The translations under genes were made by a program, and so were the position numbers. A stretch of DNA of 29,953 nucleotides from positions 1 to 29,953 of the IMG/VR virus record IMGVR_UViG_3300037139_000037; one strand, 5' to 3'. The DNA is from a virus (Duplodnaviria > Caudoviricetes). The first letter of the stretch is position 1. Every line of letters begins with the position of its first letter. Positions 664 through 15,280 of the stretch are shown one piece after another. Below the pieces are notes generated by a model. It was not told where the DNA came from. It ran no database searches and saw nothing but the letters and a program-made list of their open reading frames with translations.

Positions 664-1373
664 CATTTATGTTACTTCTCCAAAGGAGAGGCGTTGCATT
701 TCGGCAACGCTCTGCATATCACTATGCAGGTCGGACTATATCATCACCTTGAGGTGCCTGACGTGTAGTCTCTACGGGTTTAGGTAAAGAGTCTGCTGGG
801 AAAATTCCGTTGAGCCGCATCATTTCTCGTCTCAACTCGTCTCTCTTTGCAGTCACTTCGGAACTCAGTTCTTGACTACCAATTCGTCCTGTGTAATAAG
901 TCTTGCAGAACTCTAAGGTAATCAATGCCTGTTTCCTTTTTACAATGAGGTAAGGCAGAATCCCTAGCGTAAATGTCTCGATGTCCTCGTGGCTTGTTCT
1001 GAACCACGAATATCTCGTTTTATACTTTGGGTTTCGGTTCTCGTTACTGCCTATGAGAACCTTGCCCCCAAAAGTCTTGGCTATCCAATCCATCACCTCT
1101 TTATTGGTGTTGGTTACGGAAACCATACATTTGTAGGTTATGTATTTCTGCTTACTTCCGTCCCGTTTCCTTTGAACAGAGAAGGTTTTGACGATGGAGA
1201 AGGAACCCTCACCATCCATGAAACCTGCTAAGTACGAAAACTTCGACTGTTTTGTCATCCTATCTTCCCTCGGGATTGTCTGATTTACCACTAACTTCAG
1301 TATATCAGGGTTTCCCCGATTTAGTCAAGTTTTGCTGTTGTTTTACTTGCCTGCAGCAGCCGCTAAGGTTTTA
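664..1373 (-). mobile_element. Group I intron (710 nt) in the major capsid gene
   Basis: Exon GCCGU pairs with intron GCGGC (P1, U.G at splice site); guide CCUUA pairs with 3' exon UAAGG (P10); R-like GUAGAGACUA and S-like GAUAUAGUCC (P7 GACUA/UAGUC); P9 hairpins; terminal G at 664. Confidence 0.93.
722..1258 (-). CDS. Intron-encoded single-motif LAGLIDADG homing endonuclease
   Basis: YLAGFMDGEGSFSI motif; ATG at 1258; 3' end of the ORF runs through the intron R/S core. Confidence 0.92.
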   Translation of the reverse strand: MTKQSKFSYLAGFMDGEGSFSIVKTFSVQRKRDGSKQKYITYKCMVSVTNTNKEVMDWIAKTFGGKVLIGSNENRNPKYKTRYSWFRTSHEDIETFTLGILPYLIVKRKQALITLEFCKTYYTGRIGSQELSSEVTAKRDELRREMMRLNGIFPADSLPKPVETTRQAPQGDDIVRPA

Positions 1374-1735
1374 ACGGCGAACAGGCCCTTCTGCTTGGAA
1401 TCCGTGGAAGCCTGAGCCAGCCACGAAATCTCGCAGACGTTGAACAGATAGACTGGGGCCAGAGCGAAGGAAGCCCATTGCGAACCGCTGCCACGGAGCA
1501 TGCTGTCTGCGTTGCCCGTGCCTTGCGTAATTGCCGCACCAGCCTGCACCCTGAAGGGCACTCGGAATGATGCACGTTGCGTCCCACCAGCGTTGCTTTG
1601 GTTGGACACAGGAATCTTTGTTGCTTCTGCCTTAAACATGCTGTACGCGGTCGTCCCGTGGAAAACTAGATCGGGGATTTCTTTAGCGAAAGCATCTAAT
1701 TCAACAGCCTCGACGGCTGCTTCCAATAGCGCCAT
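1374..1735 (-). CDS. Major capsid protein, exon 1
   Basis: MALLEAAVEAVELDAFAKEIPDLVF...KGLFAV; ends at the intron 5' splice site; head-module position. Confidence 0.85.
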
Positions 1736-1857: not shown

Positions 1858-1998
1858 TCACTTTGAGATAGTGTTTAGATCAGTGTTGCTTTCTAAAATC
1901 GATTGTGCCAGTATGCTTGTGAGCAACTCCCTGTTCTTCTCAGGGCTGCGTGCTCTTGCTTTTGCTGAGTACTCACGCATGTATTTCAAAGTCTTCAT
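1858..1998 (-). pseudogene. 46-aa ORF, probable truncated homing-endonuclease N-terminus
   Basis: AGGAGG SD; YMREYSAKARARSPEKNRE resembles the basic helical N-termini of phage HNH/EndoVII proteins; no catalytic domain; preceded by the same leader structure as intact nucleases. Confidence 0.4.
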
Positions 1999-2005
1999 TA
2001 TTCTA

Positions 2006-2074
2006 CCTCCTAACAGATCGCTCTGGAGGGTGGTTAGGCACCCTCCTCGGCTAACTCAGGGAGCAACCCCTGAG
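2006..2074 (-). promoter_or_regulatory. Two-hairpin / SD-pseudoknot leader element, copy C
   Basis: CUCAGGG/CCCUGAG hairpin, then GGAGGGUG-CCUAAC-CACCCUCC; loop CCUAAC is complementary to GUUAGG overlapping the SD. Confidence 0.6.
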
Positions 2075-2523: not shown

Positions 2524-2979
2524 TTATTCCTTTTCTCTCCACGAGGGAGTGCCGTTTAAGTCGGCTCTTCTACGTAAAATTTCTTTTTTCCACTGATGAT
2601 TGTGACACAGAGTTTGAAAACCCTCTGGCAATCCTTCACGTTTTAGTTTTGCATAGAACGCTACTCCACCGGGGTTGTTGCTAGTCTTCCTGTCTTCATT
2701 TCCGTTGTTCTCTTTATGATCTAAAGACAGCATATCTGGGTCAACTACGCTACACTCAGGCCAGCAACACTGAAGAACACCGGAGTTTCCGTAGTGGGAT
2801 AGAACCTCAATCTTCAGTGCTAACCTTTCTGCACTTCGATTAACATTGACACGGACTCGACATTCTTCGCAGTACTTAATTTCGGCAGGCTTAACTGCGC
2901 AACAAACGCATAAGCCTTCCTTTCTAAGCCGTGCATATCGCTTCCTGTTGTCTTCGTAGTTCTTCTTTCTTCCAGTCAC
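2524..2979 (-). CDS. HNH-family (His-Me) endonuclease
   Basis: CVCC...CEEC zinc motif, then LSLDHKENNG...FQTLCHNH; GTG start abuts the scaffold stop codon. Confidence 0.8.
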   Translation of the reverse strand: MTGRKKNYEDNRKRYARLRKEGLCVCCAVKPAEIKYCEECRVRVNVNRSAERLALKIEVLSHYGNSGVLQCCWPECSVVDPDMLSLDHKENNGNEDRKTSNNPGGVAFYAKLKREGLPEGFQTLCHNHQWKKEILRRRADLNGTPSWREKE

Positions 2980-8987: not shown

Positions 8988-9350
8988 TTACCCCTTGGCG
9001 GTTGCCGCCTCTTCCTCTAACTCTTTTGCTATGCGTGCATCATGCTCGTCTTGCTCAACCTGCCAAGTTGTCCTCACTCGTGGTGACTCGAAGCTGGCAA
9101 AGCTAGGCTTCTCTGCTCGCTTACGCGTAGGATCGATGCCTACGCGCTGGTTGATGTTCATCTGATAAAGTGCGACTGTAGCTGTGAGTTGTGCCTTTTC
9201 GGAGCGCAATTCAGCTATAGTTTGATCTTTATCCTGCCTCATTTGTTGCAAATCAGAACGCGCCATCAACAAGTCTGTTTCCAATCTGCATAGTAATCTA
9301 GAGCAAAAAAGATCATGGAAAAATTCACGTACTTTACTGGCTAGAGTCAT
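8988..9350 (-). CDS. Coiled-coil hypothetical protein
   Basis: Heptad-like central segment; tiles the operon. Confidence 0.75.
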   Translation of the reverse strand: MTLASKVREFFHDLFCSRLLCRLETDLLMARSDLQQMRQDKDQTIAELRSEKAQLTATVALYQMNINQRVGIDPTRKRAEKPSFASFESPRVRTTWQVEQDEHDARIAKELEEEAATAKG

Positions 9351-9852
9351 TTGTTGCTTCCTTGTTGCGTTCCCAGTATTTCTTCATTGAACGCTTATAA
9401 TTGTCTGTCCACTCCTGTGATCTAGGAGGACGCTTCCTACCAGTAAGTTGTTTACTGTGGTTTATTTTCCATTCTTCGGTGTGGAGAATTCCTATGTGAG
9501 ACTCTGCTATGTTTCTTTTTGTCTCCGCAGTTCTCTTCATACCTCTGTGTGCAGCGCCAATCTTCAACCTATGCTCCAGTGTTTTAGGTCCATAAGTTCC
9601 TTCTCCACCGTTCGTGAGGTTTCTCAGGCAACCAAGCCCTAAATCCTTGCGACCGTAGTACCAAATCAAAGCAATTTCAGTTTCAAACGCATCGGCTTCA
9701 GATTCGGCTGGATAGATAACAACGCATTCTTTAGGAGGTGCCTTCATCTTCCTATTAGGCGCTAAGTGACGTGTGTAGGCTCTATTTCCTTTTCCCTTAC
9801 CTGCATAGTAAGGGGTACCATCTTCCCTCAACCATAAATACGTGTAGAACAT
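9334..9852 (-). CDS. GIY-YIG homing endonuclease with NUMOD3-like repeats
   Basis: FYTYLW-x7-YYAGKGKGNR, conserved Glu (AFETE), LRNLTNGGEG, and RTAETKRNIAESH-type repeats; GGAGG SD before ATG 9852. Confidence 0.88.
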   Translation of the reverse strand: MFYTYLWLREDGTPYYAGKGKGNRAYTRHLAPNRKMKAPPKECVVIYPAESEADAFETEIALIWYYGRKDLGLGCLRNLTNGGEGTYGPKTLEHRLKIGAAHRGMKRTAETKRNIAESHIGILHTEEWKINHSKQLTGRKRPPRSQEWTDNYKRSMKKYWERNKEATNDSSQ

Positions 9853-9856
9853 CTTT

Positions 9857-9927
9857 CCTCCGCAATAGGTTCGCGCAGGAGGAGATTGCGGCTCCCCCTG
9901 CACTGGCGCTGAGTAATTAGTCCAGCG
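9857..9927 (-). promoter_or_regulatory. Two-hairpin / SD-pseudoknot leader element, copy A
   Basis: CGCUGGACUAAUUACUCAGCG; GCAGGGGGAG-CCGCAAU-CUCCUCCUGC; GAACCU; AUUGCGG-AGG. Confidence 0.7.
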
Positions 9928-9930
9928 ATG

Positions 9931-12348
9931 TTACTGATTTTCGTACTTGGATTGCCACACAGGCTGTTCGGCCTGTCTGAACGATGATGTTTTGTTCTCA
10001 TTCTCCGCATCAAGTTTCATCTTGAGGAAGTGGGCAGCTAGTGGGTCAGTCTTTTTCAACATTGCGACTCGTTCTGCTTCGATCTGTGCTTCAGGCTTCT
10101 TCTTTGCTCCGAGATGTCCGTACAGTCCGTATCGGAAACCATCGTAACAATCATCGCCTTTGGCATCGACCTTCAGCACATCGTCCATCACTTTAGGGTC
10201 ACGCATCAACGACGGGATTGCAAGGATTATCTCCCTGCAGGTGTCGAGGATTACAATTTCGCCCTTCTTGATACAGTTGTACATCAGCGATGCAGAACCA
10301 ATGCGGTCCTGTGTCGCTCGTGTAACTGGCGGTAAGCCCACAAGTTTCAACGCTCGTGAGTACTCATTCGCAGGTGTGCGGTCGTCCATCTGTCTGTTGA
10401 ACTTTTCATGAGAAAAGTAAATTGCTTTGAGTGCGATTGGTTTTCCGTTTGGCAAGTGTGCTTTTGCTTTGATGATCGAGGCTAACTCGTCCATCGTCTT
10501 GCCGCCTGTTACAACGATCTCTTGGAAGCAAACAGTCTTGAGTCTGTAGTTGTCTCCAATTGAGTCTTTAACCAGCGCCTTCGTAAACATGTAGGTGGCG
10601 TTGGCGTGTCCCATGCCCCAGTCTTCTCCAGCCCAGCACGGTTGCCAGTCTTGCCAGATAATAGCCTCGGGGTCTTCTCGTAAGTTGAGCACGTGATACG
10701 AAGGATCGAAGCAGTCGAAGTACTGTCCTTCTGCTACGCCGTCATACCCGTATAGAACTTTGTCCCGCTTCGCCTTCGGCATTGACATCAAACGTGTAAC
10801 GATGCCAGGGTCACGTGCGAGCAGTTCTGGGTTGTCAAAAACTGTCGAGCGTTGGTAAGCATACTCGTCTGGGTCGTAAATCTTGCTCCACTCCCCAGAT
10901 TCCTTAGTCCACCATGTTCCATCCACAGGGTCGCGCTTGGCTTCCTCACCCGGATTCCATGGTTCCTTCTGAACGAACAGCGTGCGGTAGTACTCGTAGT
11001 GTGGACCCAATGGGTTCGTGCACCCTACGATGGTTGGTATCGGGAGATTATTGTGATCGTCCCGTTGGCAAGCTGGGTTGACGATGTTACGTTGGAATAG
11101 CATCATCCATGCATCCGGCGAGAACTGACCACATTCATCAACCAGAATAGCGGGGTAAGCCTGCCCTAAGTACTGCTCGATGTCTCTATCTTTGTTGTTC
11201 TGACAATTATGAACAAGCACACCATTGGCAAAGAACTCATGTTCTTCTTCAACTTGTAAGTCAAATACTGGGACAGGTTCTGAGGTAATCTGCTCGGAAG
11301 GCGTTGCCACAGTTAACGTCACAAAATCGCTTCTTTTTTGTTTGGGCGATAATTGGTTTGTTACATTCCCAGCAGATGATCTTCCAAGGCTCACGGAGCA
11401 GAGGTCTTCCTGTGCGTCCGATGCCGTGAGGGGCGTGGTGTATTCTGTGCTCTCTGATGGGAAGCAGTTCATAGTTGCTTCCATCAAATGGGTTGTTAAG
11501 AGGGTTTTCATCTTTGTGATGAACTTCAAACCTCTCTGGAATAGCACCGTTAGTTTTTTCGTAAACAGCGACGTGCAGGTAAGTTTTGATTCCGTTTCTC
11601 CAGCCTTTATAGTACACACGGTCGGACCTACGGCTTGAGTCTGGATACCTGTAGTAAACAACGTCTCCAAATACGATGGTTTGTGACACAGCAGGCGCAC
11701 GGTCTTTTCTAAATCCTTTTGGCATGTAATCTCCTCTGCGGATTTCCATTCCCCATTGACTAAGAGTTTATGCTCTTTGGTTAGGCTTAATGGACCAAGT
11801 TGGACGACTGCTTTGGTGCCAGTCTGCCCAGACCATAGTATACGCCTAAATCCTTTACGAGTCAATGCTGAGTCTTCCGTGGTTACCTCTTCAATAGGTA
11901 CTAAACCCCTCTGTGTGGTTACTAACGTGCCTTTAGCAAGGCAGTGTCCGAAGACTACCCGCGATCCGTTTGTTAATGTTGCAACGTGCTTCGTGGAGTC
12001 GTAGGTGTAGAGTTCCTTCGGCATGAAGGTGCGAAAATCTGCAATGGCTCCGTTCTCCAGTTCTTTAAAATTTCTTCTCAGAACTAGAAGGTTGCACCCT
12101 TCCCATTGTAGGCAATAGTGCATCACAAAAAACATGAGCCATCCGCAAGTTTTACCTGAGCGGATACCACCCGTACTTAAACATTGTCCTGCTGCAGGTT
12201 GCAAGTACACCTTACCATTACGCATAACATTACGTATCAGTTCTGTCTGCTTCGGTTGGAATCTGAATATCTTGTCGAAGTTCAGTGTTCCATCTGTGTT
12301 TAAGTATGGCTTTGTCTCTACTGCATCTACGATTTTTCTTCGGGGCAC
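9931..12348 (-). CDS. terL: Terminase large subunit (intein-containing)
   Basis: Walker A GGIRSGKT, Walker B ILVDE, TNP coupling motif, nuclease-domain DWG and DDCYDGFRY. Confidence 0.93.
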   Translation of the reverse strand: MPRRKIVDAVETKPYLNTDGTLNFDKIFRFQPKQTELIRNVMRNGKVYLQPAAGQCLSTGGIRSGKTCGWLMFFVMHYCLQWEGCNLLVLRRNFKELENGAIADFRTFMPKELYTYDSTKHVATLTNGSRVVFGHCLAKGTLVTTQRGLVPIEEVTTEDSALTRKGFRRILWSGQTGTKAVVQLGPLSLTKEHKLLVNGEWKSAEEITCQKDLEKTVRLLCHKPSYLETLFTTGIQTQAVGPTVCTIKAGETESKLTCTSLFTKKLTVLFQRGLKFITKMKTLLTTHLMEATMNCFPSESTEYTTPLTASDAQEDLCSVSLGRSSAGNVTNQLSPKQKRSDFVTLTVATPSEQITSEPVPVFDLQVEEEHEFFANGVLVHNCQNNKDRDIEQYLGQAYPAILVDECGQFSPDAWMMLFQRNIVNPACQRDDHNNLPIPTIVGCTNPLGPHYEYYRTLFVQKEPWNPGEEAKRDPVDGTWWTKESGEWSKIYDPDEYAYQRSTVFDNPELLARDPGIVTRLMSMPKAKRDKVLYGYDGVAEGQYFDCFDPSYHVLNLREDPEAIIWQDWQPCWAGEDWGMGHANATYMFTKALVKDSIGDNYRLKTVCFQEIVVTGGKTMDELASIIKAKAHLPNGKPIALKAIYFSHEKFNRQMDDRTPANEYSRALKLVGLPPVTRATQDRIGSASLMYNCIKKGEIVILDTCREIILAIPSLMRDPKVMDDVLKVDAKGDDCYDGFRYGLYGHLGAKKKPEAQIEAERVAMLKKTDPLAAHFLKMKLDAENENKTSSFRQAEQPVWQSKYENQ
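11206..11943 (-). mobile_element. Intein (246 aa) in the TerL ATPase domain
   Basis: Block A CLAKGTLVTT, block B LTKEH, blocks F/G VFDLQVEEEHEFFANGVLVHN followed by Cys+1. Confidence 0.93.
11261..11725 (-). CDS. HNH endonuclease overprinted in another frame within the intein
   Basis: GAGGAG SD before ATG 11725; YLHVAVYE..NGAIP...VHHKDENPLNN...NYELL...EH; C-terminal CWEC/CDVNC zinc ribbon. Confidence 0.85.
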   Translation of the reverse strand: MPKGFRKDRAPAVSQTIVFGDVVYYRYPDSSRRSDRVYYKGWRNGIKTYLHVAVYEKTNGAIPERFEVHHKDENPLNNPFDGSNYELLPIREHRIHHAPHGIGRTGRPLLREPWKIICWECNKPIIAQTKKKRFCDVNCGNAFRADYLRTCPSI

Positions 12349-12875: not shown

Positions 12876-13433
12876 TTATTTTCCCCATTTCCTAAGGTAG
12901 GCTGCGGCAGCTTCACATAGTGTTGGATTGTCTTGTAAAAGCCCTATAGCCTGATTGCATGTACCGCAAAGTAATTCACGTGGAGTCTTAGTTTCATGGT
13001 CGTGATCTGCATGCGGAGTTGTTTCGAAAGGTTTATTACACAAAGCACAGCAATTGTTCTGCTTCTTTTTAGTTTCCTCCACCGATTCTGGAGTCCAACC
13101 TAAATGCTTCAACGCCGCTCTACGAGAACGCTTTGCAACTTTAGCACGAAGTTCTGAATCATTTGCATAGCGTTCTTTGGAAGCTAATAACTGCTCCTCT
13201 TTGTGCTCTGCGTAGTACTTTTTCATGTACTCTGAGTTCGGCTTTCGTTTTCCACGGAGTGCTTCGTTTCTCTTTCGAGAAAATTCTTTTGCTTTTTCAG
13301 GGTTTTCTGCCCACCAATTACTACTGGTAATCTTCTGGCACTCTTTGCATCCTCCACTACTGCTTACATTGTTAGGGGTTCTTTCATGCCCACGTTTACA
13401 ATGCTTCTTTTTCTGGTACGGTCCTCTTATCAT
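12876..13433 (-). CDS. Endonuclease VII-like homing endonuclease
   Basis: QNNCCALC...HADHDHET...RELLCGTCNQAIG; N-terminal HCKRGHE...CKEC module. Confidence 0.88.
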   Translation of the reverse strand: MIRGPYQKKKHCKRGHERTPNNVSSSGGCKECQKITSSNWWAENPEKAKEFSRKRNEALRGKRKPNSEYMKKYYAEHKEEQLLASKERYANDSELRAKVAKRSRRAALKHLGWTPESVEETKKKQNNCCALCNKPFETTPHADHDHETKTPRELLCGTCNQAIGLLQDNPTLCEAAAAYLRKWGK

Positions 13434-13436
13434 TTT

Positions 13437-13507
13437 CCCTCCATATAAGGTTCGAGCCTAGAGTGTATATGGCACCCTAGGCTCTACACTGGGTAATTAT
13501 TCCAGCG
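13437..13507 (-). promoter_or_regulatory. Two-hairpin / SD-pseudoknot leader element, copy B
   Basis: CGCUGGAAUAAUUACCCAGUG; GAGCCUAGGGUG-CCAUAUA-CACUCUAGGCUC; GAACCU; UAUAUGG-AGG. Confidence 0.7.
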
Positions 13508-15125: not shown

Positions 15126-15201
15126 TGGCTGGCACGGAGGGTGTCGAACCCCCAACCACTGCATTAACAGTGCAGCGCTCTGCCAATTGAGCTACATGCC
15201 A
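15126..15201 (-). tRNA. tRNA-Asn(GUU)
   Basis: 76-nt cloverleaf; CUGCA-CUGUUAA-UGCAG anticodon arm; GUUCGA T-loop; encoded CCA. Confidence 0.95.
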
Positions 15202-15206
15202 ATCTT

Positions 15207-15280
15207 TGGTGGACCGTGGCAGATTCGCACTGCCGTTTGATGCGTGCAAGGCAACTGTCCTCCTACTAGACGAACAGCCC
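15207..15280 (-). tRNA. tRNA-Ala(UGC), atypical
   Basis: Cloverleaf with G3:U70, discriminator A and CCA; anticodon UGC; T-loop UGCGAAU. Confidence 0.85.

What the first reader, a model, noticed from the sequence alone, without database searches (positions are those of the whole stretch)
9857..9927. Recurring two-hairpin RNA element with a covarying pseudoknot over the SD of free-standing homing endonucleases (copy A)
Seen: immediately after the terL stop come hairpin 1 (CGCUGG-A-x-UAAUUAC-y-CAG-y-G), hairpin 2 with a 7-nt loop, linker GAACCU, and a 7-mer perfectly complementary to the loop whose last GG starts GGAGG. Copy A: CCGCAAU/AUUGCGG before a GIY-YIG gene. Copy B (13437-13507): CCAUAUA/UAUAUGG before an EndoVII gene. 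Copy C (2006-2074): CCUAAC/GUUAGG. Loop and partner change together and hairpin 2 is fully re-sequenced yet paired. Known: T4 I-TevI is repressed by a simple SD hairpin. Inference: a portable cis-regulatory or mobility module shared by unrelated nuclease families; I do not recognise it as a named family.
Basis: partly seen in the sequence, partly recalled or inferred. Interest (0 to 1): 0.85.

Follow-up and report, generated by a model that had tools for sequence, protein, structure and literature searches.

The report
Kissing-loop lock on phage nuclease translation
A three-hairpin element of about 80 bases sits in front of selfish DNA-cutting genes in this uncultured peat phage and its relatives; one hairpin loop matches the loop that holds the gene's ribosome-binding site letter for letter, which likely keeps these nucleases scarce, and the first hairpin's often self-complementary loop may let two RNA copies pair.

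Summary
The element is real. The window holds three copies on the minus strand, and related loci give 97 distinct copies. It has three helices, not two. The 'linker' pairs with the bases after the partner (P3, at least 3 bp in 75 of 86 cores; swap control 50), so the 'pseudoknot' is a loop-loop kiss that buries the Shine-Dalgarno sequence (fully buried in 83 of 91). A model blind to the kiss found it complete in 47 of 54 distinct hits. Of 89 downstream ORFs, 83 are nucleases or nuclease-like, from at least three unrelated folds. Element and nuclease come and go as one cassette right after a stop codon. Loops of the first hairpin (P1) carry 6-base palindromes in 10 of 15 types, against 3.5% of control hairpins. 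Best reading: a portable translational silencer that works like T4's hairpins but is built differently. RNA dimerisation is the open, bolder option. No Rfam match. An unreadable 2023 candidate set may contain it. This scan noted the same family, including the palindromic loop, on other DNA before. No function was tested.

The parts
9931..12348 (-). Upstream gene, likely terminase large subunit, with an intein; its stop codon (9931-9933) lies 3 nt before P1 of copy A
   Evidence: its C-terminal part gives tblastn hits to annotated terL at 22-27% identity
9907..9927 (-). Copy A, P1: 6-bp hairpin with 9-nt loop ACUAAUUAC holding the palindrome UAAUUA (9914-9919)
9873..9903 (-). Copy A, P2: 12-bp stem (two G-U pairs) with 7-nt loop L2 CCGCAAU (9885-9891)
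9857..9869 (-). Copy A, P3: CCU/AGG stem closing 7-nt loop L3 AUUGCGG (9860-9866), complementary to L2; joined to P2 by GAA (9870-9872)
9857..9861 (-). Shine-Dalgarno GGAGG of the nuclease gene: GG in the kissing helix, AGG in P3
   Evidence: sequence
9334..9852 (-). Free-standing GIY-YIG-like endonuclease gene, 172 aa from the ATG at 9852; its end overlaps the start of the next gene
   Evidence: PHROG 314 E 1.2e-11; no Pfam hit; relatives with the same N-terminus hit Pfam GIY-YIG weakly (L124, L143)
13438..13507 (-). Copy B: P1 13487-13507, P2 13454-13484 (L2 CCAUAUA 13466-13472), P3 13438-13450 (L3 UAUAUGG 13441-13447); 5 nt after the upstream stop
12876..13433 (-). Endonuclease VII-family free-standing nuclease gene behind copy B
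   Evidence: Pfam PF02945 E 1.3e-14
2005..2074 (-). Copy C: P1 2055-2074 (UUGC loop), L2 CCUAAC 2033-2038, P3 AUCU/AGGU with L3 GUUAGG 2009-2014
1858..1998 (-). 46-aa ORF behind copy C, likely the stump of a deleted nuclease gene
   Evidence: no family hit; its 3' part is 91% alike to DNA that in L059 lies between a nuclease gene and the capsid gene

Best explanation
The element is a portable three-hairpin RNA leader that travels with free-standing homing endonuclease genes and likely holds their translation down by locking the Shine-Dalgarno sequence in a loop-loop kiss (L2 with L3) plus a short stem (P3). Shown from sequence: the three covarying helices, the exact loop match, the overlap with the ribosome-binding site, the nuclease association, and the gain and loss of element plus gene as one cassette just after a stop codon. 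Inferred: the cassette lands in the strongly transcribed late operon; P1, mostly 3-8 nt after the upstream stop, would block re-initiation by terminating ribosomes; the kiss and P3 would block fresh 30S binding; only leaky translation remains, which is enough for homing and spares the phage. Whether the kiss forms within one RNA (P3 or lower P2 partly open) or between two RNAs is not settled. Copies appear to exchange modules, likely by short-patch recombination, which would let new nuclease genes inherit a ready-made dimmer.
For: Kiss complete in 47 of 54 distinct hits of a model blind to it; 51 of 54 have at least 6 pairs; the other 3 are truncated remnants. Loop positions 3-7 vary with compensation while position 1 is C-G in 62 of 62 seven-base loops, the side that faces the Shine-Dalgarno sequence; Watson-Crick pairing extends past the loop in 0 of 86 cores on either side. 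P3 of at least 3 bp in 75 of 86, swap control mean 49.8, maximum 58 of 1000 swaps. Best anti-SD duplex fully inside L3+P3 in 83 of 91. G-U 104 versus A-C 17. 78 of 89 downstream ORFs fall in nuclease-type families by profile and 5 more are 38-58% identical to such proteins. At the terL junction 11 of 33 distinct alleles carry element plus an inserted ORF, 19 are empty, 1 is a P1 remnant, 2 carry another ORF without the element. Stop-to-P1 distance 3-8 nt in 48 of 65 assignable copies; this fits the ribosome termination structure, whose folding minimum lies five nucleotides after the stop (PMC7518266, passages). T4 precedent for RBS-sequestering hairpins on homing endonucleases (PMC2988022, passages).
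Against: No experiment on translation. Four nuclease genes inside the same late module have no element (L062 twice, L078, window 2524-2979), so the lock is not obligatory. No 'on' switch was found: no T4-type late promoter in 97 copies. A rough rigid-body estimate says P2, P3 and the full kiss cannot all form in one molecule at kiss angles of 90-180 degrees (gap 27-46 A, reach 7-28 A), so the drawn fold is not one simple cis structure. The kiss is modest (mean -7.0 kcal/mol as a free duplex). One copy precedes a 331-aa ORF with no nuclease hit (L127). The self-complementary P1 loops are not explained by a purely cis lock.
Confidence: 0.62

Rival explanations
1. RNA-dimer version of the silencer. 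Two transcripts pair through their palindromic P1 loops and then kiss reciprocally (L2 of one with L3 of the other). Repression would then tighten as mRNA concentration rises. This is a refinement of the best explanation, not an opposite.
For: 6-base palindromes in 10 of 15 distinct P1 loops of 7-10 nt versus 152 of 4366 control hairpin loops from the same loci. Classes UAAUUA, UGAUCA, UUAUAA, UAGCUA and UCAUGA (L073) differ by compensatory changes at positions that cannot pair within one loop. No second copy of the hexamer within 300 nt in 0 of 35 (6.2 expected), so no local cis partner. The 2+6+1 layout and a GACG loop resemble retroviral dimer loops (PMC7357161, passages; the 2+6+1 layout of HIV-1 DIS is recalled). 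P2-P3 joint of 0-3 nt in 82 of 86; P2+kiss+P3 of 21-24 positions in 67 of 86, about two helical turns. A degenerate copy that lost L3 also has a broken palindrome (L060).
Against: The two commonest P1 loops are the tetraloops UAGC (20) and UUGC (16), with only two self-complementary bases. AU-rich palindromes self-pair weakly (-0.6 to -2.4 kcal/mol). The 15 loop types are related, not independent. P2 and P3 lengths are not significantly anti-correlated (rho -0.12, p 0.29). 7 of 97 copies had no P1 by my test. DNA template switching can perfect palindromes without RNA selection (recalled).
Confidence: 0.25
2. Activating pseudoknot, as in plasmid ColIb-P9 repZ: the L2-partner pairing opens P3 and couples nuclease translation to termination on the upstream gene.
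For: The element starts a few bases after a stop codon. P3 and the kiss may be mutually exclusive in cis. Precedent: PMC4705826, passages.
Against: Here the partner strand includes the first bases of the Shine-Dalgarno sequence; in ColIb-P9 it lies just upstream of it. The upstream stop lies roughly 55-60 nt before P3, not within the inhibitory stem. P3 is mostly 3-5 bp, too weak to need opening.
Confidence: 0.08
3. Mobility signal: the element is a DNA or RNA recombination end that moves nuclease cassettes to new gene junctions.
For: An identical 39-nt core precedes GIY-YIG-like (copy A), EndoVII (L052) and HNH (L247) genes, and the same core occurs with different P1 hairpins. The element also occurs before an HNH-AP2-like gene beside a DnaB-like helicase in a genome labelled Verrucomicrobia (L118; families read from motifs by eye).
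Against: No shared 3' end (commonest 8-mer in 7 of 74 and it is the next gene's ribosome-binding region), no folding bias at the 3' end, no systematic direct repeat (mean 5.7 versus 5.3 nt). Covariation tracks the Shine-Dalgarno sequence. Ectopic conversion between copies explains shared cores as well.
Confidence: 0.1
4. Self-cleaving or self-splicing RNA, or a ligand-sensing riboswitch.
For: Small, compact, pseudoknot-like fold in phage intergenic DNA.
Against: No Rfam hit on the element down to E 10 in the window or in 18 other loci. One invariant column in 72 sequences, and P1 loops are interchangeable. RNA-library contigs cross copy A unbroken (X8 9148-9960, X18 9102-9928); the one joint that skips it has 87 other letters between, about the length of the empty DNA allele.
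Confidence: 0.05

Closest known systems
RBS-sequestering hairpins of T-even phage homing endonucleases (I-TevI, I-TevII, I-TevIII, segB, Aeh1 mobE; PMC2988022 passages) and the hairpins before endonucleases in fractured genes (PMC2677866 passages)
   Same: RNA structure over the Shine-Dalgarno sequence of phage homing endonuclease genes of several families; predicted translational repression.
   Different: Those are single hairpins released by a late promoter placed inside them. This has three helices and a 6-7 bp loop-loop kiss, one conserved architecture at many sites, and no TATAAATA in 97 copies.
Ribosome termination structure (PMC7518266, abstract and passages)
   Same: Stable hairpin a few bases after a stop codon, proposed to block re-initiation; P1 sits at that distance.
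   Different: The RTS is a generic folding signal; P1 has constrained, often palindromic loops and is tied to a kissing module.
ColIb-P9 / pMU720 rep pseudoknot (PMC4705826 passages)
   Same: A hairpin loop pairs with a segment next to the Shine-Dalgarno sequence, after an upstream stop.
   Different: That pseudoknot activates translation and is blocked by an antisense RNA; here the paired segment includes Shine-Dalgarno bases and no antisense partner was looked for or seen.
   Same: Self-complementary hairpin loop whose palindrome changes compensatorily; a second pair of complementary, non-palindromic loops.
   Different: P1 palindromes are AU-rich and lack conserved flanking purines; the RNA is an mRNA leader; dimerisation is untested.
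Cobalamin riboswitch L5-L13 kissing loop (recalled, no call)
   Same: A kissing loop covers a ribosome-binding site held in a small hairpin.
   Different: No aptamer core, no Rfam hit, no metabolic genes downstream.
Candidate DNAVirus_8080 of Fremin et al. 2023 (PMC10690425, supplementary tables)
   Same: 79 nt, 29 sequences, soil and freshwater viruses, upstream of HNH, GIY-YIG and AP2 genes.
   Different: Its alignment could not be read, so identity is neither shown nor excluded; its row lists one covarying base and no EndoVII, and the main text has no 'kissing' and no such pseudoknot.

Membership tests
T-even homing-endonuclease RBS hairpins | Directly upstream of a homing endonuclease gene | tested here: met
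   83 of 89 downstream ORFs nuclease or nuclease-like
T-even homing-endonuclease RBS hairpins | Predicted structure covers the Shine-Dalgarno sequence | tested here: met
   83 of 91 fully inside L3+P3; prediction only
T-even homing-endonuclease RBS hairpins | Single stem-loop | tested here: not met
   three helices plus a kiss
T-even homing-endonuclease RBS hairpins | Late promoter within the structure that frees the RBS | tested here: not met
   TATAAATA in 0 of 97; sigma-70-like sites in 11 of 97 at scattered positions; none at copies A or B; this phage's own late promoter is unknown
T-even homing-endonuclease RBS hairpins | Repression of translation shown | not testable with these tools
   needs reporter or toeprint
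Any Rfam 15 family (ribozymes, riboswitches, leaders) | Match to a covariance model | tested here: not met
   no hit on the three copies at E up to 10; none on the element in 18 other loci or at gathering score in 15 loci
Self-splicing intron | Precise excision from RNA | tested here: inconclusive
   no clean joint at copies A or B in four RNA-library contig sets; contigs drop rare forms
ColIb-P9-type activating pseudoknot | Paired segment lies upstream of, not on, the Shine-Dalgarno sequence | tested here: not met
   partner ends in the first Shine-Dalgarno bases
Retroviral-type palindromic kissing dimer | Self-complementary loop kept through sequence change | tested here: met
   10 of 15 loop types versus 3.5% of controls; weak for the UAGC and UUGC tetraloop types
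Retroviral-type palindromic kissing dimer | Dimer forms in solution | not testable with these tools
   needs native gel or SEC-MALS
Intrinsic terminator | U-tract after the stem | tested here: not met
   run of five T after P2 in 0 of 97
Fremin 2023 candidate DNAVirus_8080 | Same sequences and structure | not testable with these tools
   alignment archives too large to read

The most novel reading that the evidence does not exclude
A natural, protein-free RNA dimer switch in a phage mRNA leader: palindromic P1 loops bring two transcripts together, reciprocal L2-L3 kisses of about two helical turns lock both ribosome-binding sites, and nuclease output is buffered against mRNA level. Unrelated selfish nucleases would have adopted one exchangeable module that makes them tolerable at any junction of the late operon.
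Probability: 0.25. Interest if true: 0.85.

Novelty: new variant of a known kind. Interest (0 to 1): 0.62.

Why it matters
It shows one conserved, modular RNA fold serving several unrelated homing-nuclease folds. In T4 the comparable controls are single hairpins. It offers a direct handle on how phages tolerate many selfish nucleases in their busiest operon, since filled and empty alleles and dozens of natural compensatory variants exist for testing. If the dimer reading holds, it would be a rare natural case of translation control by mRNA self-association, and a ready set of orthogonal kissing loops.

Tried and rejected
Whole genome: none held. First pattern (TAAUUAC...GAACCU...GGAGG): only 1 of 28 loci was a true copy; the linker is not conserved. 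Hairpin-1 pattern also hit loci with P1-like sequence but no P2/P3 (L032 group, L094, L112-L117), treated as chance or unrelated; none of those given to the model scored. Pattern scans on the P2 top gave a whole-loop partner in 30 of 44 and 18 of 53 distinct hits; the misses look like unrelated hairpins except L128, a copy with 6 of 7 pairs. My descriptor requires the kiss, so it was not used as evidence for it; the model search was. The official kiss count on alignment A3 is only 77% because rows with an 18-nt spacer are one column out of register; per-row counts are. Cultured phages: no relative of the element; terL relatives below 27% identity. P2/P3 length anti-correlation: not significant. 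Conserved 3' end or target duplication: none. RNA runs are contigs only, so strand, ends and level could not be read. A promoter-like reading of L053/L059 did not pass my own filter. In one search, 21 of 40 'nuclease without element' rows were artefacts of one fused query (L107) and were dropped, leaving 19. Literature searches that found no description of this element: (0 papers).

Full report
Observation. Copy A begins 3 nt after the stop of the likely terminase gene and reads: P1 (6 bp, loop ACUAAUUAC), CCA, P2 (12 bp, loop CCGCAAU), GAA, CCU, AUUGCGG, AGG, AAAG, AUG. Folding gives a third small hairpin, CCU/AGG, closing the 'partner'. Copy B has the same layout. Copy C has another P1, a 6-nt loop, and precedes a 46-aa ORF without family hits. 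Rfam has no hit on any copy at E up to 10. No whole genome is held.

Family. Pattern scans and 46 terL-related loci gave 97 distinct elements by a descriptor that requires the loop match, a start codon and a purine-rich end. Because that is circular for the kiss, I built a covariance model without it (15 sequences) and searched the window and 67 of the 252 loci, 585 kb: 82 matches, 54 distinct, and in the window only copies A, B and C. Loop and partner are fully paired in 47 of 54. Four more have 6 or 7 pairs. The last three are truncated remnants. Over the whole structure 92.1% of cells pair, against 68.6% in shuffles and 40-50% for slid partners, and 27 of 28 pairs change on both sides. That alignment is fitted to the stems, and relatedness inflates such counts. 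G-U pairs outnumber A-C 104 to 17, which points to RNA on the coding strand.

It is a kiss, not a plain pseudoknot. In 86 distinct cores the bases flanking the partner pair with each other: at least 3 bp in 75, against a mean of 49.8 and a maximum of 58 when flanks are swapped between copies. Variants include CCU/AGG, AACU/AGUU, GUCC/GGAC and CUCU/AGAG. The loop match stops exactly at the loop edges: 0 of 86 extend by a Watson-Crick pair on either side. There are 57 different L2 loops. Position 1 is C-G in all 62 seven-base loops and positions 3-7 vary. The best anti-Shine-Dalgarno duplex lies wholly within L3 and P3 in 83 of 91 copies with a plausible start (the anti-SD motif is recalled).

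What follows it. I scanned 89 ORFs: 86 of the 97 rows plus three more; 11 rows were left out as near-duplicates, cut ORFs or unclear starts. Pfam gave 27 EndoVII, 12 GIY-YIG, 9 NUMOD3-only, 7 HNH, 1 AP2-only and 1 PD-(D/E)XK. PHROGs placed 20 more in endonuclease families and one in the same unnamed family as copy A's protein. Five others are 38-58% identical to two of these and share a DH...N...H motif (motif read by eye). Six stay unassigned: four short or cut ORFs, one doubtful start, and one 331-aa ORF (L127). An identical 39-nt core stands before a GIY-YIG-like, an EndoVII and an HNH gene, and one core pairs with three different P1 hairpins. The modules are therefore exchanged.

Cassette behaviour. 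At the terL junction 11 of 33 distinct alleles carry the element plus an inserted ORF, 19 go straight to the next gene's ribosome-binding site, one keeps only P1 and part of P2, and two carry another ORF. At the junction before the small terminase-like gene 4 of 19 are filled. P1 starts 3-8 nt after a stop in 48 of 65 copies where a stop could be assigned; 25 of 90 could not. In terL-anchored loci 32 of 33 elements are on the terL strand. Of distinct nuclease-like ORFs in those loci and the window, 46 have the element and 19 do not: 7 on the opposite strand, 5 upstream of the late module, 3 at locus edges (one with a visible partial element), and 4 inside the late module. The element is thus common in the late operon but not obligatory. 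No shared 3' end or target duplication was found in 74 cassettes.

Reach. It spans phages whose terL C-termini are 51-98% identical to the window's. It also occurs in contigs whose 3-4 kb fetched stretches show no core-gene match, one of them in a genome labelled Verrucomicrobia (L118). Two copies without a clear P1 have a sigma-70-like promoter ending just before P2 (L194, L175). Cultured phages hold no match. Runs that hold the window are peat and permafrost metagenomes. RNA-library contigs from two studies cross copy A with no joint. This does not prove transcription, as DNA can be in such libraries.

The P1 loop. Of 15 distinct P1 loops of 7-10 nt, 10 hold a 6-base palindrome, against 152 of 4366 control hairpin loops. 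The classes UAAUUA, UGAUCA, UUAUAA, UAGCUA and UCAUGA (the last from L073) differ by paired changes at positions that cannot pair inside one loop. No second copy lies within 300 nt (0 of 35). Against a dimer: the commonest loops are the tetraloops UAGC and UUGC, the AU-rich palindromes self-pair weakly, and the types share ancestry. A rough geometric estimate says that P2, P3 and a full kiss do not fit in one molecule with a joint of 0-3 nt at angles of 90-180 degrees. A sharper, unstacked cis fold or a switch between P3 and a pseudoknot is not excluded. P2, kiss and P3 sum to 21-24 positions in 67 of 86, but P2 and P3 lengths are not significantly anti-correlated.

Mechanism. Most likely the element silences translation of the nuclease on the late polycistronic mRNA (0.62). 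P1 would stop re-initiation after the upstream stop, as proposed for ribosome termination structures (PMC7518266, abstract and passages). The kiss and P3 would block fresh initiation. These steps are inferred. The dimer version (0.25) overlaps with this and would make repression concentration-dependent. An activating pseudoknot of the ColIb-P9 type (PMC4705826, passages), a mobility signal and a ribozyme or riboswitch are less likely, for the reasons listed under rivals.

Known versus new. It works like the T-even endonuclease hairpins (PMC2988022 and PMC2677866, passages) but fails two of their features: it is not a single hairpin and has no T4 late promoter. Rfam has no family for it. Six full-text searches found no description; the library lacks most subscription journals. 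Fremin et al. 2023 (PMC10690425; I saw passages, rows of supplementary tables 3 and 5 and the first part of file 4) list candidates upstream of mixed nuclease families. DNAVirus_8080 could be this element, but the alignment files could not be read. Three earlier notes of this scan describe the same family on other DNA, one of them the palindromic loop. My readings were noted before I saw them; they are not independent support. Verdict: real, a new variant of a known kind, interest 0.62.

Noticed in passing
window 11202-11939 (-), ORF 11261-11749 (-): The terL intein reads through without a stop, yet carries an HNH_3 ORF (162 aa, E 7e-9) in another frame on the same strand. Alleles lacking exactly these 738 nt occur in RNA and DNA contigs.
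   Followed up: partly
window 712-1383 (-): Group I intron-like region (Rfam 39 bits, below the gathering score of 50) with a LAGLIDADG ORF, splitting the likely capsid gene; a joint that skips it appears in three RNA runs and one DNA run.
   Followed up: partly
window 2524-2979 (-); L059, L061, L075, L087, L119, L133, L135: A family of 140-215 aa proteins with a DH...N...H motif and no Pfam nuclease hit; likely an unmodelled His-Me finger homing endonuclease family.
   Followed up: partly
L175 2273-2580 (-): A viral contig carries a bacterial RNase P RNA (102.6 bits, above gathering) among seven tRNA genes, with two element-led nuclease genes in the same cluster.
   Followed up: no
L053 19000-19500; L059 11000-11450: By eye, small ORF-less group I intron-like inserts near the end of the capsid gene; Rfam gave no hit at gathering score.
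   Followed up: no
L126, L164, L175, L243, just before P2: In place of P1 these copies have a palindrome-like word, TTGTAGCTACA(A) or TTGTACGTACAA, overlapping a -10-like hexamer; possibly an operator or a minimal P1.
   Followed up: no
L055 3432-3523 and 4065-4151: Two elements in tandem share the same P1 and the same 20 or so upstream bases, with a likely frameshifted nuclease gene between them.
   Followed up: no
P2 upper stem, all loci: The 5' strand of P2 holds GGAGG in 58 of 97 copies, so its 3' strand resembles the 16S anti-Shine-Dalgarno tail and could pair with the real site in another fold.
   Followed up: no
L107 689-1525 (+): The EndoVII ORF behind the element runs in frame into the next phage gene as one 279-aa ORF.
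   Followed up: no
window 15129-15280 (-): Two tRNA genes.
   Followed up: no
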